Of a stretch of 64,000 nucleotides of DNA, positions 26,865 through 38,273 are shown in pieces. Within the stretch, counting starts at the first letter, position 1. The number at the start of each line of letters is the position of its first letter. The stretch is from a virus. Lineage: Duplodnaviria; Heunggongvirae; Uroviricota; Caudoviricetes. Below the pieces are notes generated by a model, which was not told the origin of the DNA, did not search any database, and worked only from the letters and a program-made list of their open reading frames with translations. The translations under genes were made by a program, and so were the position numbers. The stretch covers positions 1 through 64,000 of the IMG/VR virus record IMGVR_UViG_3300026549_000060, one strand, 5' to 3'.

Positions 26865-27860
26865 CTACCAACCTATATCATTAGGATCATCAACTTTAAT
26901 CCCAAAGATATCACAAAAATTAGAAATACGATCATCAACTGCAAATTCTTGCATTTTATTATAATTAATTCTAAACTTAGTTAAATCTAATGTACCATTA
27001 GTAGGAATAGTAATACAATCTAACTTACCTTCTTTACCCATTGTACCAGATCGAACTAAATCTGTCAAGCGTCTTTGTGTATCTGAATCAAATTGACCTA
27101 TATCAATTTCTTCCAAGTCAAATCTATAGCCTCTATCCATTACTCTAAAGGTACTTCCATAAATTGCATTATATACCAACATAGATTTAACTGATCTTGG
27201 CAGTCTATCTTGGGCATAGTTTTCTTTATTCCAAGAACTTGGAATAGCACAATAAACTGTACCTGTTTTTAACTGCTCAACATATCTACCTCTATAATCA
27301 TCAATCTTAGTGGTAAGCTCTTCTTTACTGATTCCTTTCTTAAGGATATGCTCAATAAAATCATTTAACATATCTCTGCTAAATTGAGGATAATCAGATC
27401 TTACAACTTCTATACCACTAATACTGATTTTATCCAAAGGCTTTCCTTCTTTGGAAACTAACCAAATAGCATACTTCTTTTTGATTTCCAGAAACAAAGC
27501 TCTTCTAATAACAAGTTCCTGTTTAAAATTAAAGTTAAACTTTTTAGCCGAAGATTCTGTAGGAGATGTATTATGCATATTAAGAAGTTCATGAATCATT
27601 ACATTATTAATATACTGTGCTACAGATTCATTCAATTCAATAACTTTATCTATCTTTTCCTTGTCAGAAATTTCATCATAATCTTTTCCATAAATTGCTT
27701 TCAATGCATCGCCATATTTAGTAAAAATTGAATCTGTATTATGAACTAATATGTCATTTGCAAAAAAACAATGATCATCATCTGGCATTTCAATATCATA
27801 TACATCAATAGGTTCTTCTGGAGTAATCACTTCTATTGATTTAACACTCTCTATCTTCAT
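26865..27860 (-). CDS. Family-B DNA polymerase C-terminal fragment, beginning with a C-terminal split-intein half (IntC about 41 aa; 27738..27860)
   Basis: MKIESVKSIEVITPEEPIDVYDIEMPDDDHCFFANDILVHN is an intein block F/G ending in HN. It is followed by TDSIFTKYGD..., the C-extein that continues pol motif C (YGD|TDS). Confidence 0.8.
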   Translation of the reverse strand: MKIESVKSIEVITPEEPIDVYDIEMPDDDHCFFANDILVHNTDSIFTKYGDALKAIYGKDYDEISDKEKIDKVIELNESVAQYINNVMIHELLNMHNTSPTESSAKKFNFNFKQELVIRRALFLEIKKKYAIWLVSKEGKPLDKISISGIEVVRSDYPQFSRDMLNDFIEHILKKGISKEELTTKIDDYRGRYVEQLKTGTVYCAIPSSWNKENYAQDRLPRSVKSMLVYNAIYGSTFRVMDRGYRFDLEEIDIGQFDSDTQRRLTDLVRSGTMGKEGKLDCITIPTNGTLDLTKFRINYNKMQEFAVDDRISNFCDIFGIKVDDPNDIGW

Positions 27861-27914
27861 TTTCCTTCACCACCCATATAATGATTCTATCAGACTCGGC
27901 ATACTTTGTCAATA

Positions 27915-28540
27915 ATTACACAATATTCTTATTTGTAGGTCCTGTATAGTATGGGCAATACAATACTAATCAGGTATCAATTATACGATATTCTTATTTG
28001 TAAGTCCACATGGTAAAACAATTCCACTACTCCAAAAGCTCATAGTTATACGATACCCTTATTTATAAGTAACGTATAGTGAGTATACCAGAACTGAAAG
28101 AGCACGTCAAGTTATACGATACTCTTTATTTGTAAGTGTCGTATAGTGCTAAAATACTCATGTTTAAAATGTCTGTTATACGATACCCTTATTTGTAAGT
28201 ACCGTATAGTAACATCATTAAATTTCATTTTTACATCACTGTTATACGATACCCTTATTTGTAAGTACCGTATAGTATGTGATGGACCATGCAGGAAGAA
28301 GATAGCGTTATACGATACCCTTATTTGTAAGTACCGTATAGTGATGATGAGGTAATAGCAGTAATAGTTAGAGTTATACGATACCCTTATTTGTAAGTAC
28401 CGTATAGTCACCCAAATCAGCATACTCTTTAATATCATGTTATACGATACCCTTATTTGTAAGTACCGTATAGTTCTTTTTTATCGTCTGTTGTATCTTC
28501 TTTTGTTATACGATACCCTTATTTGTAAGTACCGTATAGT
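27915..28540 (-). CRISPR. CRISPR array with eight conserved 36-bp repeats plus two degenerate terminal repeats
   Basis: Repeat gttatacgatacccttatttgtaagtaccgtatagt at 28045, 28111, 28175, 28241, 28307, 28373, 28439 and 28505. Spacers are 27-30 bp. Degenerate copies lie at 27915-27950 and 27980-28015. The degenerate repeats are distal to the nuclease gene, so I infer transcription on the minus strand from 28541-28750. Confidence 0.85.
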
Positions 28541-28543
28541 ATC

Positions 28544-28640
28544 CTATACGCAAACTCTTACAAATACTGAGTTTATTCAATATTCAGTTGTAAAAAACAG
28601 CATTTTCCATACGTAAAAACAAATAAAAAGTATCGTATCC
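28544..28640 (-). ncRNA. putative tracrRNA-like / leader region carrying two anti-repeat segments
   Basis: ctatacg-caaactc-ttacaaata (28544-28566) is the reverse complement of the repeat's 3' half (tatttgtaag..cgtatag). gtatcgtat (28630-28638) is the reverse complement of the repeat's 5' part (atacgatac). The region lies between the nuclease gene and the array. Confidence 0.35.
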
Positions 28641-28751
28641 GAATAAATCCGGAGGCAGTTAATTTTCATTAACTTTATTTAAATTCACATCGCTGATTCT
28701 GATGATCTTATTTAAATGGGTTTGCCAAACTTACCCAAATACATCCCCTGT

Positions 28752-30236
28752 TTATTTAGGGAATTTAGAATACTTTAGACCTTCAATTACGTCTTTAACT
28801 CTCATCCTAACTGGATGAAATGGATGGTATCCAACCCAACTAAAATCTGGAATTGCTTTTCTCATAATACCCATAGCGCCATTTACATCAGCATTCACCA
28901 ACTTTCCAACCCCAGAAGAAAACAATCCTCTGTGAATTCTTTTACCAAAGTTAGCCTCATCTCTAGTTTCAGGGTCTTCTTTAGTAGCCAAGGGAGCATT
29001 TCTAAGATGATCTGTTTTACTAGTATAAGACTCTTCAACAATCTCGAAGCTTATGCCCCTCATTTTACACTTATATTCGAGTTTGTCAAGTAGTTTTTTA
29101 AAAGGAAAGTTAACAATAATTTGATTATTTTTATGCCCAGTATTGATCTTCTGCTTCATATCTTTATTCCAACCGCAAATAACTCTACAAATATTATAAT
29201 GGAGGCAATATCTAACAATATACTTAGTATATGCATCAACGATATAATTTATACGATTAATATGATTCTTTGTCATTGCTTCAATTCTCTTAGTAGTATA
29301 CTGCTTAGGTCTTTTCTTCCCATTTTCATCAGTAATAACTTCAATCTTATGTTTAAGTTTATCTACCATTAAATGATAAAATCTAATTTTAGATTTCAAA
29401 GCATTACCATCAAGGATAACTGGATTAAGTTTATCATCACTAGTAATTATAGTACAAAAATTTCTAATACCCAAATCAATACTAAGATATCGTTTATTAT
29501 CAAGTTTAGGAACCGATTCATTATACGTATAAATTATTTCAATCTTAAAATATCCTTTTTTAGGAATTATCCTAACTTGGTCAATTCTTTTTCCTTTTAC
29601 ATACTCCGAATTATGTGGCAATTTTTGAAGTGGGATATAAATGCTTTTATTATATCCATCCGTTCCCCTCGGCTTAGGAAACACAAGACTTCTAGTTTTT
29701 GAGTTAATTTTAATAGAAGTACCAGAAAAGTATAATGGGCACAGATCTCCTTTTTTATAAAAACCGGGCTTTCTTGGCATTCCTTTATATTTTTCCGGGT
29801 GCCTACTCCAATCCCCAAGGGATCTTCCATATGATTTTAAATTTTTAGATAGTAATGTTCTAATTACCTCTGTAGTTGCATCTCTACCTACAAGATTTTT
29901 AAGTAGTTCCCAATTACTTTTACCCTCAAGATTTTTAGTATAATACTCACCGTTCTCATCTTGTTCACTGGCATATCTCCTCAAACTCATTACTTTAAAA
30001 AAATCATCGACAGGTTTTTCAAAACCAACGTATTCGTCTGGAAACCAAGGAAAAGACTTACCAGTTTCTTTTTTATATTGTTCTCTAACCGGGTCATAAG
30101 CTTCTTTAAACTCATAAGCATAGTACAGTGTCTGATTATACAAATTCTTAGCAACAGTACATGCTTCTACAAGCCAATCATATACTTCTTCATTTCCAGG
30201 TCTTCTATAAAAGTTAAAACTAGCAGTAAGTTGCAT
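28752..30236 (-). CDS. TnpB/Cas12-like RuvC nuclease (494 aa), the CRISPR-associated effector candidate
   Basis: RuvC-I LSIDLGIRNFCTI, RuvC-II ISFEIVEESYTSKT and RuvC-III NADVNGAMGIMRKA, with a TnpB-like WED region (KGKRIDQVRIIPKKGYFKIEI). No cysteines between RuvC-II and RuvC-III. RBS gaggggg. Confidence 0.8.
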   Translation of the reverse strand: MQLTASFNFYRRPGNEEVYDWLVEACTVAKNLYNQTLYYAYEFKEAYDPVREQYKKETGKSFPWFPDEYVGFEKPVDDFFKVMSLRRYASEQDENGEYYTKNLEGKSNWELLKNLVGRDATTEVIRTLLSKNLKSYGRSLGDWSRHPEKYKGMPRKPGFYKKGDLCPLYFSGTSIKINSKTRSLVFPKPRGTDGYNKSIYIPLQKLPHNSEYVKGKRIDQVRIIPKKGYFKIEIIYTYNESVPKLDNKRYLSIDLGIRNFCTIITSDDKLNPVILDGNALKSKIRFYHLMVDKLKHKIEVITDENGKKRPKQYTTKRIEAMTKNHINRINYIVDAYTKYIVRYCLHYNICRVICGWNKDMKQKINTGHKNNQIIVNFPFKKLLDKLEYKCKMRGISFEIVEESYTSKTDHLRNAPLATKEDPETRDEANFGKRIHRGLFSSGVGKLVNADVNGAMGIMRKAIPDFSWVGYHPFHPVRMRVKDVIEGLKYSKFPK

Positions 30237-30298: not shown

Positions 30299-31408
30299 TC
30301 AAGAGGCTTTATTAAAAACCTTATATCCATTACGAGCTGTCTTATCTTCACATAAGATAATAAATTTAGGATAGCTATTACTATTAAAATAAGTTGCTCT
30401 CTTACAGTGCTTACACGATAAGCACTGAATCATCACTGGTGCCTTTTTCCTTATATGGTAGTCCTGAAATTGTGGGCAAAAATTAACGTTTGATGTAACA
30501 ATCGACCTTGGAAATTCGTTTCTAAAAAATGTCCACTGTCTTGTTAGATCTAATCCATTAAAATTTTTATTTTCTAATATATTCTTAAACTTCTTTTGTT
30601 CCATATATTCTATAATGTCAGTCTCTTTTAAAGCATCTAATCCCTCATCAGTTAGATTGTCATAAAACCTATCTACATACCATTTAACTCCGTTTGTAAC
30701 TCGAAAAGCGTATTCATAAGATCTATCACAAACTAGGTCGCTCTCACCACTTCTATGAATCCAATTGCATGGAATACTGCCGCTTAAGTATGCCTGTTTT
30801 AATTCGTCATATGTAGATTCTCTATTTACTTTAGATAAGTCATACTCTACAACATAAAAATTATTAGTATCTATAGATTTAATTAAATCTAGTTTTACAT
30901 CATCTACTCCATGGGTTACTGTTACTTCAAGATACACGCTACATGGAGAGCTATTAAATCCAAACATTTCCTCATAACTAACATCATAGCATGTCAAATC
31001 GGGTCTAATATATTTCCCATTAGCACAATTTAAATTTTTTTCAAGATAACCCTTATTAAATTTATAAAAATTTGATTCTTTAATCCTAATATATGATGTG
31101 CCCATACTAAGCGTATTAGGATTTATAATATTACCATTCCAATCAATATCTAATTCAGGCATCCTACATAGGCCTGTTTCCATAATAATCTTTTTCATGC
31201 CTAAATGTAAATTAGTCTCTCCATGAACATAAACTGAAGCTGGACATTTACTATTCGGTAAATGTGAAAAATGATGACCAACAATATTACCTTTTTTAGC
31301 TACTAAAGGCTCCCCGCATATAGGGCAGATATAATTATGCAACCCAGACACTACTTCAGAAATATTCTTAATGCTACCGTCTATCAAACAATATTCTAAC
31401 TGAGCCAC
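30299..31408 (-). CDS. CoiA-like protein (competence-protein-CoiA family; nuclease-related)
   Basis: N-terminal YICPICGEPLVAKKGNIVGHHFSH matches the CoiA CPxCx..GxxxxxHFAH motif. Confidence 0.45.
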   Translation of the reverse strand: MAQLEYCLIDGSIKNISEVVSGLHNYICPICGEPLVAKKGNIVGHHFSHLPNSKCPASVYVHGETNLHLGMKKIIMETGLCRMPELDIDWNGNIINPNTLSMGTSYIRIKESNFYKFNKGYLEKNLNCANGKYIRPDLTCYDVSYEEMFGFNSSPCSVYLEVTVTHGVDDVKLDLIKSIDTNNFYVVEYDLSKVNRESTYDELKQAYLSGSIPCNWIHRSGESDLVCDRSYEYAFRVTNGVKWYVDRFYDNLTDEGLDALKETDIIEYMEQKKFKNILENKNFNGLDLTRQWTFFRNEFPRSIVTSNVNFCPQFQDYHIRKKAPVMIQCLSCKHCKRATYFNSNSYPKFIILCEDKTARNGYKVFNKAS

Positions 31409-35693: not shown

Positions 35694-38273
35694 TTATAAG
35701 GTGATTAGTTGGTCTGTTACAACTAATTCTGTTGGTTTAATTATAGTTTTAACATTATTTCTCATTACTACCAAACTATGATCTTCAGTTACAGTGACTG
35801 TTTTTCCAGATTCAGTAGTAATCTTATACAGTTTCTTATTAGTTTTATGCTTCATCAGATACCTTGGGAAATAAAGTCTGTCATCATATCCAAGTACGCA
35901 TTTATTAGGATTCTGAATATAATTTTTTCCGAGATAATGCCACACTTTATTATCCGAAGCACACATATCCCAAAGTTCTTTAATAGTTATATTACCTTTA
36001 CCAGTTCTGATTAAAGAATCTCCAGTAACTGAATCTCCATAAATTACATTTGGTAGAGCTTGTTCTGATTGGTAATCCCAATCAAAAGGAATATCTACAT
36101 GGTCAAATTTATTAGATTTATTTTGAATCATTTGATTAATGCAATTATTAGCAACTACTGCGGCGATTTTAGCAATTTCTCTACCAGTAGAAGTAATACT
36201 TCTGGCAACCTCATAATCATACAATCTGAATCTAATATTGGACTGACCACCATAAAGAGAATTAGTAATGATCTTAACTGTTTTCTGCATAGTATCATAT
36301 CTGTCAACTAGCATTTGGTCTTTACCAATATTATCCTTCATAAGATCTTTATACTCTTTTCTCTTTTTAATGAGCATATCTACAATATCATAAAGAACTG
36401 ACTGCTTATCTTCATGCTTCTTAAAGATAGTGCCAATCTGGGTAATAATATACCCATTCTTAAGCATTCTTTCATGAAAACTTTTAGCAGACAATTTATA
36501 CAATCTCTCAATACCTTGAACTTTCAAATACAAACTTACATCTGTATTGGAATTAACAAATTCTTCTTTATTAAAGATATATTGTCTAGCAGTATCTGTA
36601 TCAACTTTTCCTACATAGGTATCTGCACTAATGTTATATCTTGCCATAATGTATGGATAAAGAGAAGTAAGATCCAAATCACCCAACCAATCATGTACAC
36701 CGCTAATTGGTTCTCTAACATAAGCACCCGCAAACTTTTTCTTCTCAATTCCAGCTTTAACAATTTTGGCTACTTTATCTCTATCCATAAGATACTCATA
36801 AAGAATCCCATCACAAATATGTAGAGTAGTATAAATACTATCCCATGAGATATTAGCCAACTGGACTATACTAAAATTAAGGTCAATATACTTCAACTTT
36901 TCATCCAATTTTCTTACAAGATGAACGTCGTTAATATTGTATGCAATAAACCTTTCAGGTTCTTCCCTAAAGATTTTATCCATGCCATCTTCAGTATCAA
37001 GTTTAGTAATACCCAACTCAATTTTAGAAATAGTTCCAAGCTTATAATTCTCTTTTTTACCAAGAGTTCTTTCCTTATAGCATCTTTGATAATCAAGTGC
37101 TACAGAATAACCAATATGAGGAATACAATAAGTAACTTCCTCTTCATGTTTATTCATAACTGTTTTATATTCAATTTCAAAAGTTTTATTATGAGCCAGT
37201 TTAGGATGTTCAATTCCTAAAAATTCTGCTCTATACTTAATATAAGGTAAATCAAATTCATCACTATTCCACCCAGATACTAGATCTGGATCAAATTCTT
37301 TCAATAAACTGAAGAACTTAAGGAACATATCACTTTCTTTATCAAAGATTTCTACATTGAAAATACACTCATCTTTGTAATCAAGATATTCCTTAATTTG
37401 TTCAGTATTAATTTTAGCTTTGTTTAAATTATAGACCAAAGTATAATATTTGTCAGTATAATTATCATACAAAGTAATCAAGTTAACGGGAATAACTCTA
37501 GCTGACTTCTTAATATCAGCAAAGTCAATAATACCATATCCTTCTTGATACAACTCAATATCAACATAATTTACTCTAAGTTTATAATGACCAAGATTAT
37601 CTTTGTTTTCTTTTTTCCAAAGATAATTCTTATGAATAGCCAAATTAAAATCTACATTATAAATAGCTTTATAAGAAGATTCTGACTGAATTTGTTCAAT
37701 AATGTATTTTCTTTTACCATAATGTACCAGTTCACCTTTTAATCCTGCAATATCATGAACATCTAAATAATCATCTTTACCGGTATACATCATAACCATA
37801 TCATCAGTCTGAGTAATATATCTTTTATCACCAACTCTAATAACATATGCAAATTCCTTATTCACATAGTCTGAATAGAAGTTAAACAGCATAGGCTTAG
37901 AATACCCATCAGTTGGCTTAGAATCTTCTTTCTCTTTAGAGCTATACAATTTATATTTACTCTTTTTATTAATAACTACATCAGTTTCTTTCTTTTTAGG
38001 TTTTTCTTCAATTTTGGGAAACACGGGTTTAACAGGAATATAATTAAACTTATAAATAGTGTTATACTTCTTATGTACTTTAGCAATATCTTCAATAGAA
38101 TACTTATACGCATAAGGATTATTGAAAAGCTGATTCAATACAATAGATGTTTCAAAATCTTCTTCAGCTAAACTTAAAATAGAGGAAATCTTAAGAGACT
38201 TACATTCCTCTGGAAATGGCACATTTCCTTCAGTAGCTAACCATCTTATATATGTAGTTAGTGGTGAAGCCAT
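35694..38273 (-). CDS. Family-B DNA polymerase N-terminal fragment (3'-5' exonuclease and polymerase motifs A, B and the YGD of C), ending in an N-terminal split-intein half (IntN about 112 aa; 35697..36032)
   Basis: Motifs YVDIE, YNINDVHL, GAYVREP, DLTSLYPY (motif A) and KIITNSLYG (motif B), then ...NVIYGD|SVTGDSLIRTGKG (intein block A) ... TVTEDHSLVV (block B TxxH) and a stop. Confidence 0.85.
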   Translation of the reverse strand: MASPLTTYIRWLATEGNVPFPEECKSLKISSILSLAEEDFETSIVLNQLFNNPYAYKYSIEDIAKVHKKYNTIYKFNYIPVKPVFPKIEEKPKKKETDVVINKKSKYKLYSSKEKEDSKPTDGYSKPMLFNFYSDYVNKEFAYVIRVGDKRYITQTDDMVMMYTGKDDYLDVHDIAGLKGELVHYGKRKYIIEQIQSESSYKAIYNVDFNLAIHKNYLWKKENKDNLGHYKLRVNYVDIELYQEGYGIIDFADIKKSARVIPVNLITLYDNYTDKYYTLVYNLNKAKINTEQIKEYLDYKDECIFNVEIFDKESDMFLKFFSLLKEFDPDLVSGWNSDEFDLPYIKYRAEFLGIEHPKLAHNKTFEIEYKTVMNKHEEEVTYCIPHIGYSVALDYQRCYKERTLGKKENYKLGTISKIELGITKLDTEDGMDKIFREEPERFIAYNINDVHLVRKLDEKLKYIDLNFSIVQLANISWDSIYTTLHICDGILYEYLMDRDKVAKIVKAGIEKKKFAGAYVREPISGVHDWLGDLDLTSLYPYIMARYNISADTYVGKVDTDTARQYIFNKEEFVNSNTDVSLYLKVQGIERLYKLSAKSFHERMLKNGYIITQIGTIFKKHEDKQSVLYDIVDMLIKKRKEYKDLMKDNIGKDQMLVDRYDTMQKTVKIITNSLYGGQSNIRFRLYDYEVARSITSTGREIAKIAAVVANNCINQMIQNKSNKFDHVDIPFDWDYQSEQALPNVIYGDSVTGDSLIRTGKGNITIKELWDMCASDNKVWHYLGKNYIQNPNKCVLGYDDRLYFPRYLMKHKTNKKLYKITTESGKTVTVTEDHSLVVMRNNVKTIIKPTELVVTDQLITL

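What the first reader, a model, noticed from the sequence alone, without database searches (positions are those of the whole stretch)
28752..29120. The TnpB/Cas12-like nuclease lacks the canonical Zn-finger cysteines in the RuvC-II/RuvC-III insertion (TNB/Nuc region)
The segment between ...EIVEESYTSKT and ...NADVNGAMGIMRKA reads DHLRNAPLATKEDPETRDEANFGKRIHRGLFSSGVGKL. It has no cysteines, only two histidines. TnpB, Cas12f and most compact relatives carry a CxxC...CxxC zinc ribbon here. Loss of this element in a protein of TnpB size is unusual and may define a distinct lineage.
Basis: seen in the sequence. Interest (0 to 1): 0.55.

Follow-up and report, generated by a model that had tools for sequence, protein, structure and literature searches.

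The report
Zinc-free TnpB-derived phage CRISPR nuclease
A 494-residue RNA-guided nuclease gene next to a CRISPR array in a very large phage does lack the usual zinc-binding cysteines, but it inherited that from a large, already reported branch of zinc-free transposon nucleases, so the loss itself is ordinary.

Summary
Residues 409-446 of the ORF at 28752..30236 (-) contain no Cys and two His, and the whole protein has no CxxC motif.

The protein is intact. The RuvC triad D254/E402/D450 and R433 are invariant, and the TNB segment is under strong purifying selection (dN/dS about 0.08).

Every parsable homologue also lacks the CxxC...CxxC motif: 110 of the 120 best hits, and 135 of the top 150 50%-identity cluster representatives. 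These include RefSeq TnpBs next to IS607-type serine transposases in Segatella copri, Clostridium botulinum (ISCbo10) and a Helicobacter phage, and one from Methanohalobium with no transposase alongside. A tree places this protein deep inside that zinc-free TnpB clade, so the loss predates this protein. Altae-Tran et al. (PNAS 2023) already reported that zinc fingers are lost in some large TnpB branches.

What sets this lineage apart is something else. It is a CRISPR-associated derivative carried by a phage with contigs over 200 kb. It has REC-lobe insertions, a 10-repeat array, an anti-repeat (candidate tracrRNA) that co-varies with the repeat in three diverged loci, and extra spacers at the leader end of the array.

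It is most likely a compact tracrRNA-dependent type V effector that matches no Cas12 model I scanned. Interest in the zinc finding is low. Interest in the locus is moderate.

The parts
28752..30236 (-). Gene for the 494-aa TnpB-derived, CRISPR-associated RuvC nuclease (Cas12-like)
   Evidence: ORF. NCBIfam guided_TnpB E 2e-32. Pfam PF07282 and PF01385. AF2 model pLDDT 84.2, pTM 0.78. Foldseek: AsCas12f E 2e-15, ISDra2 TnpB E 8e-13. GC 0.319 against 0.316 for the window.
28887..29027 (-). TNB (target nucleic-acid binding) insertion between RuvC-II and RuvC-III, residues 404-450, with no zinc ligands
   Evidence: No Cys. Column frequencies: R433, R436, G437 invariant; D409, L411, G431, L438, F439, S441, G444 at least 90%. 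Predicted strands 432-435, 438-440 and 446-448; mean pLDDT of the 10-residue blocks spanning it (401-450) is 59-88. dN/dS 0.076-0.078 at dS about 1.
28956..28976 (-). 7-residue insertion (D421-E427) in the TNB loop, present in all CRISPR-clade members and absent from about 111-113 of the 121 aligned sequences
   Evidence: Alignments A1 and A2. Predicted short helix 422-428 with low confidence. Some TnpB representatives (P0128, P0129, P0142, P0144) have TNB segments 6-13 residues longer than the common 34.
29475..29477 (-). RuvC-I catalytic Asp (D254)
   Evidence: Invariant in 121 sequences.
29031..29033 (-). RuvC-II catalytic Glu (E402)
   Evidence: Invariant in 121 sequences.
28887..28889 (-). 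RuvC-III catalytic Asp (D450) in the NADVNG motif
   Evidence: Invariant. NADXN is the signature of the 'derived TnpB' clade (PMC10691335).
28938..28940 (-). R433, invariant TNB arginine that aligns with the active-site arginine of AsCas12f
   Evidence: Invariant 121/121. The HMM alignment to 8j12 puts it opposite the Arg in GNRIG. Identifying that residue as AsCas12f R383 rests on my recollection of the published numbering.
29922..30119 (-). REC-lobe insertion (about residues 40-105) relative to the roughly 410-aa TnpB relatives
   Evidence: Alignment A1, columns 62-135. Partly low pLDDT: the block means for residues 61-80 are 55 and 50, and 68-75 is below 50.
28540..28751 (-). 212-nt gap between the stop codon and the first repeat: candidate tracrRNA and array leader
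   Evidence: Identical in the three loci of the 99%-identical protein P0001 apart from one base next to the first repeat (GGGTA versus GGATA). 79% identical in L013 over an alignment spanning the gene 3' end and most of the gap. Folds with z = -2.7. No Rfam match.
28606..28639 (-). Anti-repeat, complementary to almost the whole CRISPR repeat
   Evidence: Inverted repeat I1. RNAduplex -28.2 kcal/mol against -14.2 +/- 2.4 for shuffled repeats. The equivalent elements in L013 (-27.8) and L003 (-29.1) pair with their own, different repeats, whereas cross-pairings give -15 to -22.
27915..28539 (-). CRISPR array: 10 repeats of 35 nt (CTATACGGTACTTACAAATAAGGGTATCGTATAAC) and 9 spacers of about 30-31 nt. 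Six perfect repeats sit next to the gene; the degenerate repeats sit at the far end.
   Evidence: Contigs carrying the identical protein hold only spacers 6-9, so spacers 1-5 are extra units at the leader end. Loci of the 99%-identical protein carry entirely different spacers.

Best explanation
The gene encodes an intact, functional RNA-guided RuvC nuclease that descends from a large branch of TnpB proteins. That branch carries the NADxN RuvC-III motif, and several of its members sit beside IS607-type serine transposases. It had already lost all four zinc-binding cysteines of the TNB domain before this lineage became CRISPR-associated. So the zinc-free state is inherited, not a local event.

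The TNB mini-domain is retained as a zinc-independent beta-hairpin or small sheet. I infer that it is held together by a small hydrophobic and glycine framework (L411, L438, F439, G437, G444, S441). It still presents the invariant arginines R433 and R436 beside the RuvC site, and this is the part of the TNB domain that matters for loading and cleaving the DNA strand.

In this phage the nuclease has gained REC-lobe insertions, and its single transposon guide RNA has been replaced by a tracrRNA plus a CRISPR array. It most likely acts as a compact type V effector: the tracrRNA pairs with the repeat of each crRNA, the spacer directs the protein to complementary DNA, and the single RuvC site cuts it.

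Shown here: absence of ligands; clade-wide absence; nesting within zinc-free TnpBs; purifying selection; conserved array and co-varying anti-repeat; array differences at the leader end.

Inferred: zinc-independent folding, DNA cleavage, and the targets.
For: Absence of ligands: no CxxC in the protein; no conserved Cys or His column in the TNB of the CRISPR clade.

Clade-wide absence: of the 120 best homologues, the 110 that could be parsed have 0-2 Cys here and no CxxC pair among those listed. All 135 parsable sequences among the top 150 50%-identity cluster representatives have no CxxC. RefSeq examples: S. copri WP_006847935 (IS607 transposase adjacent), C. botulinum ISCbo10 WP_013720791, Nostoc 7120 WP_010999710, Methanohalobium WP_013195676 and the TnpB of a Helicobacter phage IS607-like element.

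Inheritance: in an NJ tree rooted on three zinc-finger TnpBs, the CRISPR clade is monophyletic in 100/100 bootstraps and nested at least 4 nodes deep in 99/100. Its sisters are P0006, P0007 and P0121. P0006 and the more distant zinc-free relative P0033 both lie next to resolvase genes.

Functional constraint: D254, E402, D450, R433, R436 and G437 are invariant. TNB dN/dS is 0.076-0.078 at dS about 1, and the TNB is 89% identical to P0005 where the whole protein is 52% identical.

Fold: AF2 pLDDT 84.2, with three TNB strands predicted. Foldseek gives AsCas12f and TnpB as top hits.

CRISPR function: an array lies downstream in three diverged lineages (window, L013, L003), each with its own repeat and a matching anti-repeat. 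Contigs with the identical protein lack spacers 1-5 at the gene-proximal end. Near-identical loci carry wholly different spacers.

Against: - No zinc-free TnpB that I could identify has been tested biochemically. The IS607-family TnpB shown to cut DNA (CboTnpB, bioRxiv 10.1101/2023.11.20.567912) comes from plasmid NC_015417.1. The three 376-377-aa TnpBs I translated there, one of them beside an ISCbo6 IS607-like transposase, all have normal CxxC...CxxC motifs. I did not locate CboTnpB itself, so its activity cannot be transferred to this clade.
- AF2 confidence in part of the TNB is only moderate (block mean pLDDT 59 for residues 421-430). I had no coordinates, so I could not inspect contacts.
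- No protospacer was found for any of five spacers, so the target type and PAM are unknown.
- I did not scan the window systematically for adaptation genes. Only selected ORFs were tested.
- Spacers 1-5 could have been lost by deletion between identical repeats rather than gained by acquisition.
Confidence: 0.78

Rival explanations
1. The gene is a decaying pseudogene, or a truncated or frameshifted TnpB whose zinc ribbon eroded after it lost function.
For: None found.
Against: The alignment is full length through RuvC-III and the C-terminal tail. The exact protein occurs on 18 contigs. dN/dS is 0.05-0.16 over the whole gene and about 0.08 over the TNB. The catalytic residues are invariant. 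The TNB is the best-conserved segment against the 52%-identical homologue.
Confidence: 0.01
2. A metal site persists but is built from non-cysteine ligands (H410, H435, D409, or acidic residues of the insertion).
For: Two His and several Asp/Glu lie in the segment. D409 is at least 90% conserved. In many TnpB relatives C408, E414 and H419 are fairly conserved (98, 108 and 98 of 121), which could be a remnant or alternative site in those proteins.
Against: In the CRISPR clade C408 is Thr, E414 is Ala and H419 is Lys. H435 is Lys in P0005 and in 96 of 121 sequences. H410 is Ala in 72 of 121. The broader set of representatives shows KASFLD, GTSFLD and QTSFLD variants with none of these residues. 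The second knuckle has only Ser and Gly, and is one residue shorter than in AsCas12f.
Confidence: 0.05
3. The zinc-finger loss is a recent event specific to this phage lineage and defines it.
For: Characterised miniature effectors keep the site: Cas12f and ISDra2 TnpB, Cas12n, Cas12m.
Against: Every parsable homologue down to about 30% identity lacks it. The clade is nested within zinc-free TnpBs. The loss is already reported for large TnpB branches.
Confidence: 0.02
4. The protein is an RNA-guided DNA binder or repressor rather than a cutter, like Cas12k, Cas12m or the TldR proteins, and the zinc-free TNB reflects relaxed need for strand loading.
For: No protospacers were found, so interference by cleavage is unproven. 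Phage-borne arrays often serve competition or regulation rather than classical immunity (general knowledge; review PMC11656645 listed, not read).
Against: D254, E402 and D450 and the TNB arginine R433 are all invariant and under purifying selection. Known binding-only relatives have altered or lost RuvC residues (PMC10442227; PMC10691335).
Confidence: 0.1
5. It is still an ordinary mobile TnpB (OMEGA element) that happens to lie beside an unrelated array.
For: Its best family match is TnpB, not any Cas12 model.
Against: No TnpA is adjacent. The upstream neighbour is a CoiA-like gene. The gene-gap-array-PolB order is conserved in lineages down to 52% identity, with different repeats and matching anti-repeats. 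The same genomic position is kept in all loci, next to IntC-PolB. GC content is the same as the phage.
Confidence: 0.03

Closest known systems
Zinc-free 'derived' (NADxN) TnpBs, several beside IS607-type serine transposases, e.g. Segatella copri WP_006847935, C. botulinum ISCbo10 WP_013720791, metagenomic P0006/P0121
   Same: 33-42% identity over nearly the full length. Same RuvC motifs (IDLG, EESYTS, NADVNG). Same cysteine-free TNB pattern YTSK-x-D-x-L...G-K/R-R-x-x-RGLF-x-S-x-x-G...NAD. The tree nests the query among them.
   Different: They are about 410 aa, lie next to a serine recombinase or stand alone, and have no array. The query has about 80 extra residues, mostly in the REC lobe, a 7-residue TNB insertion, no transposase, and a CRISPR array with an anti-repeat.
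Cas12f (type V-F), especially AsCas12f (PDB 8dzj, 8j12)
   Same: Best structural match (Foldseek E 2e-15, TMq 0.55) and a leading PDB profile match (E 1e-11). Miniature size, NADxN RuvC-III motif, and dependence on a tracrRNA (predicted here).
   Different: About 14% identity. Cas12f has a CCCC zinc finger in the TNB and a second zinc finger in the REC lobe (PMC10097598); the query has neither. NCBIfam Cas12f2 scores 37 bits against a cut-off of 450. PADLOC Cas12f models score 35-42 bits.
ISDra2 TnpB (PDB 8exa, 8h1j), the reference OMEGA nuclease
   Same: Same domain plan: WED-REC-RuvC with a TNB insertion (PMC10097598).
   Different: ISDra2 belongs to the 'typical' DRDxN clade and coordinates zinc through C331, C334, C351 and C354. 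It uses a single omega RNA, not a CRISPR array.
Phage-encoded compact type V effectors (Cas-lambda, Cas12j/CasPhi, Cas12p 'hacker', Cas12r)
   Same: Carried by large phages, next to short arrays and without nearby adaptation genes. The Cas-lambda2 paper describes its TNB domain as a three-stranded sheet plus two helices and never mentions zinc (PMC12141684).
   Different: No sequence relationship is detectable beyond the RuvC core: Foldseek E 2e-6 and 2e-10 for 8dc2 and 9jfs, and no PDB sequence hits. Those proteins are larger, and Cas-lambda and CasPhi need no tracrRNA (my knowledge).
Predicted V-U variants V-U6 to V-U45 (Altae-Tran et al., PNAS 2023)
   Same: Recent, independent TnpB-to-CRISPR recruitments with short arrays. 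Thirteen of the 40 lie in the derived clade.
   Different: I could not test whether this lineage is one of them. The supplementary tables are not held.

Membership tests
TnpB/Cas12 RuvC nuclease superfamily | Split RuvC with catalytic Asp (I), Glu (II) and Asp (III) | tested here: met
   D254, E402 and D450 are invariant in a 121-sequence alignment.
TnpB/Cas12 RuvC nuclease superfamily | Curated profile match above threshold | tested here: met
   NCBIfam NF040570 guided_TnpB 112.9 bits (cut-off 100). Pfam PF07282 38.5 bits (cut-off 26.3). PF01385 27.1 bits, below its cut-off of 30.5.
TnpB/Cas12 RuvC nuclease superfamily | WED-REC-RuvC-TNB fold | tested here: met
   AF2 pLDDT 84.2. Foldseek gives 71 PDB hits with E <= 1e-3; the listed top 50 are all Cas12, TnpB or Fanzor structures.
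TnpB/Cas12 RuvC nuclease superfamily | C4 (CxxC...CxxC) zinc finger between RuvC-II and RuvC-III (in the motif of Bao & Jurka 2013, PMC3627910) | tested here: not met
   No Cys in residues 404-450 and no CxxC in the protein. The feature is not universal, since it is lost in large TnpB branches (PMC10691335).
'Derived' TnpB clade (Altae-Tran et al. 2023) | NADXN motif in RuvC-III, as opposed to DRDXN in typical TnpBs | tested here: met
   NADVNG at 448-453; N448, D450 and N452 are invariant. Definition.
IS605/IS607 OMEGA transposon TnpB | Adjacent TnpA (Y1 or serine recombinase), or transposon ends with a single 3' omega RNA | tested here: not met
   The upstream gene is CoiA-like and an array lies downstream. 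The position is fixed in all related contigs. The nearest relatives do have an adjacent resolvase.
Type V CRISPR-Cas effector (Cas12) | Conserved adjacency to a CRISPR array | tested here: met
   Arrays lie downstream in the window, L013 and L003 (52-85% identical proteins, three different repeats) and in L007-L009 and L022-L026.
Type V CRISPR-Cas effector (Cas12) | Guide RNA components (crRNA with or without tracrRNA) matched to the array | tested here: met
   The anti-repeat co-varies with the repeat in three loci: own pairings are -28 to -29 kcal/mol, cross pairings -15 to -22. This is computational only; expression is untested.
Type V CRISPR-Cas effector (Cas12) | RNA-guided, PAM-dependent nucleic-acid targeting | not testable with these tools
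   No protospacer was found for five spacers in the viral or metagenome collections.
Type V CRISPR-Cas effector (Cas12) | Active spacer turnover | tested here: inconclusive
   There are five extra leader-end spacers relative to contigs with the identical protein, and wholly different spacers in 99%-identical loci. This is consistent with acquisition, but deletion or recombination is not excluded. No cas1 or cas2 was identified, and the window was not scanned exhaustively.
Cas12f (type V-F) | Family profile above threshold; zinc fingers in the TNB and in the REC lobe | tested here: not met
   NCBIfam Cas12f2 scores 37.4 bits against a cut-off of 450. PADLOC Cas12f models score at most 42.5 bits. 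No CxxC anywhere.

The most novel reading that the evidence does not exclude
The gene, candidate tracrRNA and array form a previously unclassified type V subtype. It would be a 460-495-aa, tracrRNA-dependent Cas12 with no CxxC zinc-binding motif that arose independently from a zinc-free TnpB of the kind often linked to IS607 transposases. It has so far been seen only in one group of phages with contigs over 200 kb, which appears to come from rumen samples. It sits between the two halves of a split-intein DNA polymerase gene and gains spacers without adaptation genes of its own. If active, it would be the first characterised miniature CRISPR nuclease whose TNB domain needs no zinc.
Probability: 0.4. 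Interest if true: 0.55.

Novelty: new member of a known kind. Interest (0 to 1): 0.3.

Why it matters
The missing zinc finger does not matter much by itself. It is an inherited trait of a large TnpB branch and has been reported before. The useful result is the correction: a C4 zinc ribbon is not a defining feature of TnpB-size nucleases, so its absence should not be read as decay or as a mark of a new lineage.

The locus has modest value on two counts.
- It is a clean, recent example of a TnpB becoming a CRISPR effector. The steps are visible: REC insertions, an omega RNA replaced by a tracrRNA plus array, and loss of the transposase.
- It offers a candidate 494-aa effector without a structural metal, which could interest groups engineering small genome editors.

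Both points depend on experiments that have not been done.

Tried and rejected
- DNA search of 20 kb of the window against GenBank phages: no match.
- Single-sequence PDB search: only a marginal hit. The profile search was needed.
- Protospacer searches with 22-nt seeds of five spacers: none found in IMG/VR or, for one of them, in JGI metagenomes.
- The search for related loci with the protein: no relatives in the metagenome or viral collections. The clade is known only from ENA, Logan and JGI contigs reached by exact look-up.
- Rfam scan of the gap and array: nothing.
- Nucleotide comparison of the gap with the regions downstream of zinc-free TnpBs (putative omega RNAs): similarity only inside the coding region, so descent of the tracrRNA from an omega RNA is not shown.
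- Attempt to tie an experimentally active IS607 TnpB (CboTnpB) to the zinc-free clade. The plasmid named in the paper carries one zinc-free TnpB (ISCbo10). The three 376-377-aa TnpBs I translated there, one of them next to an ISCbo6 IS607-like transposase, have normal zinc fingers. None of the TnpBs I read has Asp at position 189, so I did not identify CboTnpB. I therefore dropped the claim that a zinc-free TnpB has been shown to be active.
- Supplementary tables of the PNAS classification are not held, so assignment to a named branch or V-U number was not possible.
- The first tree script timed out and the second failed on a distance cap. One search is the valid run.
- I considered and rejected the CoiA-like neighbour as part of the system. 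It is replaced by an HNH gene and two small ORFs in 99%-identical loci.
Full report
**1. The observation**

The ORF at 28752..30236 on the minus strand encodes 494 residues. The quoted peptide is residues 409-446, at window 28899-29012. It has no Cys and two His. The whole protein has seven Cys and no CxxC motif.

The peptide lies between EESYTS (RuvC-II, E402) and NADVNG (RuvC-III, D450). This is where the Pfam TNB model (formerly Zn_ribbon) aligns over its full length. A profile alignment to AsCas12f places the first CxxC knuckle opposite D409..R412. The second knuckle falls opposite S440/S441..V443/G444 and is one residue shorter.

**2. The protein is not damaged**

- It passes the NCBIfam guided_TnpB threshold: 112.9 bits against a cut-off of 100.
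- It aligns end to end with its homologues.
- D254, E402, D450, R433, R436 and G437 are invariant across 121 sequences.
- The exact protein is found on 18 contigs, four of them between 0.2 and 1 Mb. Another member of the same 90% cluster lies on a 288-kb contig.
- Against homologues at 85% and 78% identity, the TNB codons show dN/dS of 0.076 and 0.078 at dS about 1.
- Against the 52%-identical homologue, the TNB is 89% identical, making it the best-conserved part of the protein.
- An AlphaFold2 model built on 121 sequences has pLDDT 84.2 and pTM 0.78. It predicts three short strands in the TNB (432-435, 438-440, 446-448) and a low-confidence helix in a 7-residue insertion.
- Foldseek returns AsCas12f (E 2e-15), ISFba1 TnpB and ISDra2 TnpB.

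The pseudogene reading is refuted.

**3. The loss is not specific to this protein**

The homologue search returned a tight group of five clusters at 52-99% identity (P0001-P0005). Below that it dropped straight to TnpBs of about 410 aa at 33-40% identity.

In all 110 of the 120 best hits where both RuvC motifs could be located, the segment between them has 0-2 Cys, and no CxxC pair appears among those listed. An exhaustive phmmer search of 1.84 billion 50%-identity representatives gave 3165 hits with E of 0.001 or better. All 135 parsable sequences among the top 150 have no CxxC in the segment.

Annotated members include:
- Segatella copri WP_006847935, next to an 'IS607 family transposase';
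- C. botulinum WP_013720791, next to an 'ISCbo10' IS607-like transposase;
- Nostoc PCC 7120 WP_010999710;
- the archaeal Methanohalobium WP_013195676;
- the TnpB of a resolvase-linked element in a Helicobacter pylori phage;
- a Staphylococcus Twort-like phage TnpB.

P0006, one of the query's three nearest relatives in the tree, and the more distant zinc-free TnpB P0033 both overlap a resolvase gene.

I built a neighbour-joining tree rooted on three zinc-finger TnpBs from the same C. botulinum plasmid. The CRISPR-associated clade is monophyletic in 100 of 100 bootstraps. It is nested at least four nodes inside the zinc-free TnpBs in 99 of 100. The cysteines were therefore lost before this lineage arose.

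**4. No replacement metal site**

H435 is Lys in P0005 and in 96 of 121 aligned sequences. H410 is Ala in 72 of 121. Many TnpB relatives keep C408, E414 and H419, but the CRISPR clade has Thr, Ala and Lys at those positions. More distant representatives have KASFLD, GTSFLD and similar variants.

What is conserved is G431, R433, R436, G437, L438, F439, S441, G444 and L411. That set is a structural framework plus two arginines.

R433 aligns with the arginine in GNRIG of AsCas12f. From my recollection of the published numbering, this is the active-site residue R383. My inference is that the TNB keeps its job of presenting basic residues beside the RuvC site to load the DNA strand, and that the metal was only scaffolding.

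**5. What is already known**

- Altae-Tran et al. (PMC10691335) define a 'derived' TnpB clade by NADXN in RuvC-III. [quoted passage not shown]
- Characterised miniature effectors keep the site: ISDra2 TnpB and Cas12f are CCCC, Cas12n is CCCC and Cas12m is HCCC.
- The Cas-lambda2 structure paper describes a TNB domain and never mentions zinc.

I could not find a zinc-free TnpB that has been tested. The active IS607-family CboTnpB comes from a plasmid on which the three 376-377-aa TnpBs I translated, one of them beside an ISCbo6 IS607-like transposase, carry normal zinc fingers. I did not identify CboTnpB itself.

**6. What distinguishes this lineage**

Directly downstream of the gene on the minus strand lies a 212-nt gap, then ten 35-nt repeats with nine spacers of about 30-31 nt. 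The six perfect repeats sit next to the gene and the degenerate ones at the far end.

The gap contains an anti-repeat at 28606-28639 that pairs with almost the whole repeat. The duplex energy is -28.2 kcal/mol, against -14.2 +/- 2.4 for shuffled repeats.

Two diverged loci have different repeats: L013 (85%-identical protein) and L003 (52%-identical protein). Each carries an anti-repeat that matches its own repeat (-27.8 and -29.1 kcal/mol). Cross-combinations give only -15 to -22.

Contigs encoding the identical protein carry only spacers 6-9, so the window has five extra units at the gene-proximal (leader) end. Loci of the 99%-identical protein have the same gap, apart from one base next to the first repeat, but entirely different spacers. 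This pattern fits polarised spacer acquisition, although deletion between repeats is not excluded.

Relative to the TnpBs, the protein has about 80 extra residues, mostly in the REC lobe, and a 7-residue TNB insertion. No transposase is adjacent. The gene's GC content equals the phage's.

Known Cas12 models match weakly: PADLOC Cas12u3 44 bits, Cas12f at most 42 bits, and NCBIfam Cas12f2 37 bits against a cut-off of 450.

The most likely reading is a compact, tracrRNA-dependent type V effector recruited independently from a zinc-free TnpB. I could not determine whether it is one of the predicted V-U variants.

**7. Context**

The locus lies between the two halves of a family-B DNA polymerase gene split by a split intein. 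The N-terminal half plus N-intein is at 35694..38273. The C-intein plus C-terminal half is at 26865..27860. The C-terminal half follows the array in every related locus.

One related contig is from 'RUG11211' and another from a 'STEW19' sample. I take these as rumen data sets from their naming. That is an inference.

**8. Verdict**

The zinc-free state is real and is not a defect, but it is inherited, widespread and already reported.
- The lineage is distinct for other reasons: its CRISPR association and its REC insertions.
- Interest in the finding as stated is low. The locus as a whole is a moderately interesting new member of the family of TnpB-derived type V systems.

Noticed in passing
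window 35694-38273 (-) and 26865-27860 (-): The family-B DNA polymerase is encoded in two pieces. The N-terminal exo and pol part ends in an N-intein (Pfam Intein_splicing at residues 760-857). The second ORF starts with a roughly 41-residue C-intein-like segment (...DILVHN|TDS) fused to the rest of motif C. About 7.8 kb with about nine genes and the CRISPR locus lies between them. The C-half follows the array in all related loci.
   Followed up: partly
L023, L024, L026 versus window 28210-28504: Contigs encoding the identical nuclease carry a shorter array with only spacers 6-9. The window and L022 have five more repeat-spacer units at the leader end. The 99%-identical loci L007-L009 have a completely different spacer set behind the same 212-nt gap, which differs at one base next to the first repeat.
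   Followed up: yes
L002 1726-3501; L007 4498-5088; window 30299-31408 (-): The region upstream of the nuclease gene varies between related phages. In L002 the ThyX gene is 591 aa with a faint LAGLIDADG hit (probably an intein). L007-L009 have an HNH_3 gene plus two small ORFs where the window has a CoiA-like gene. This looks like a hot spot for selfish elements.
   Followed up: no
alignment A2, columns of query residues 408, 414, 419: Most zinc-free TnpB relatives keep one Cys (98/121), one Glu (108/121) and one His (98/121) in the first half of the TNB domain. These are absent from the CRISPR clade and from more distant representatives. They may be a remnant of, or an alternative to, a small metal or hydrogen-bond site in that subgroup.
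   Followed up: partly
L018 1120-2532 (C. botulinum ISCbo10 TnpB, 470 aa): This transposon TnpB has a roughly 60-residue insertion at the same REC-lobe position as the insertion in the phage nuclease. REC expansion at this site therefore also occurs without CRISPR association.
   Followed up: no
window 28650-28665 (-) versus L013 about 2066-2081: A small hairpin in the candidate tracrRNA changes on both sides of its stem between loci: GTTAAT-GAAA-ATTAAC in the window and GTTAAC-GAAA-GTTAAC in L013. This is a compensatory change consistent with a structured RNA.
   Followed up: partly
window 27884-27912 (-): A near-consensus sigma-70-type promoter (TTGACA, 17 nt, TAGAAT, with an upstream TG) lies just beyond the last, degenerate repeat of the array, immediately upstream of the C-intein-PolB ORF. 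Promoter-like sites were not enriched over shuffled sequence.
   Followed up: no
window 28080-28110 versus L013 2290-2319: Window spacer 7 and L013 spacer 2 share the 11-mer TCTTTCAGTTC, then GG one base further on and TCA five bases after that. This may be chance or a common target. It was not tested.
   Followed up: no
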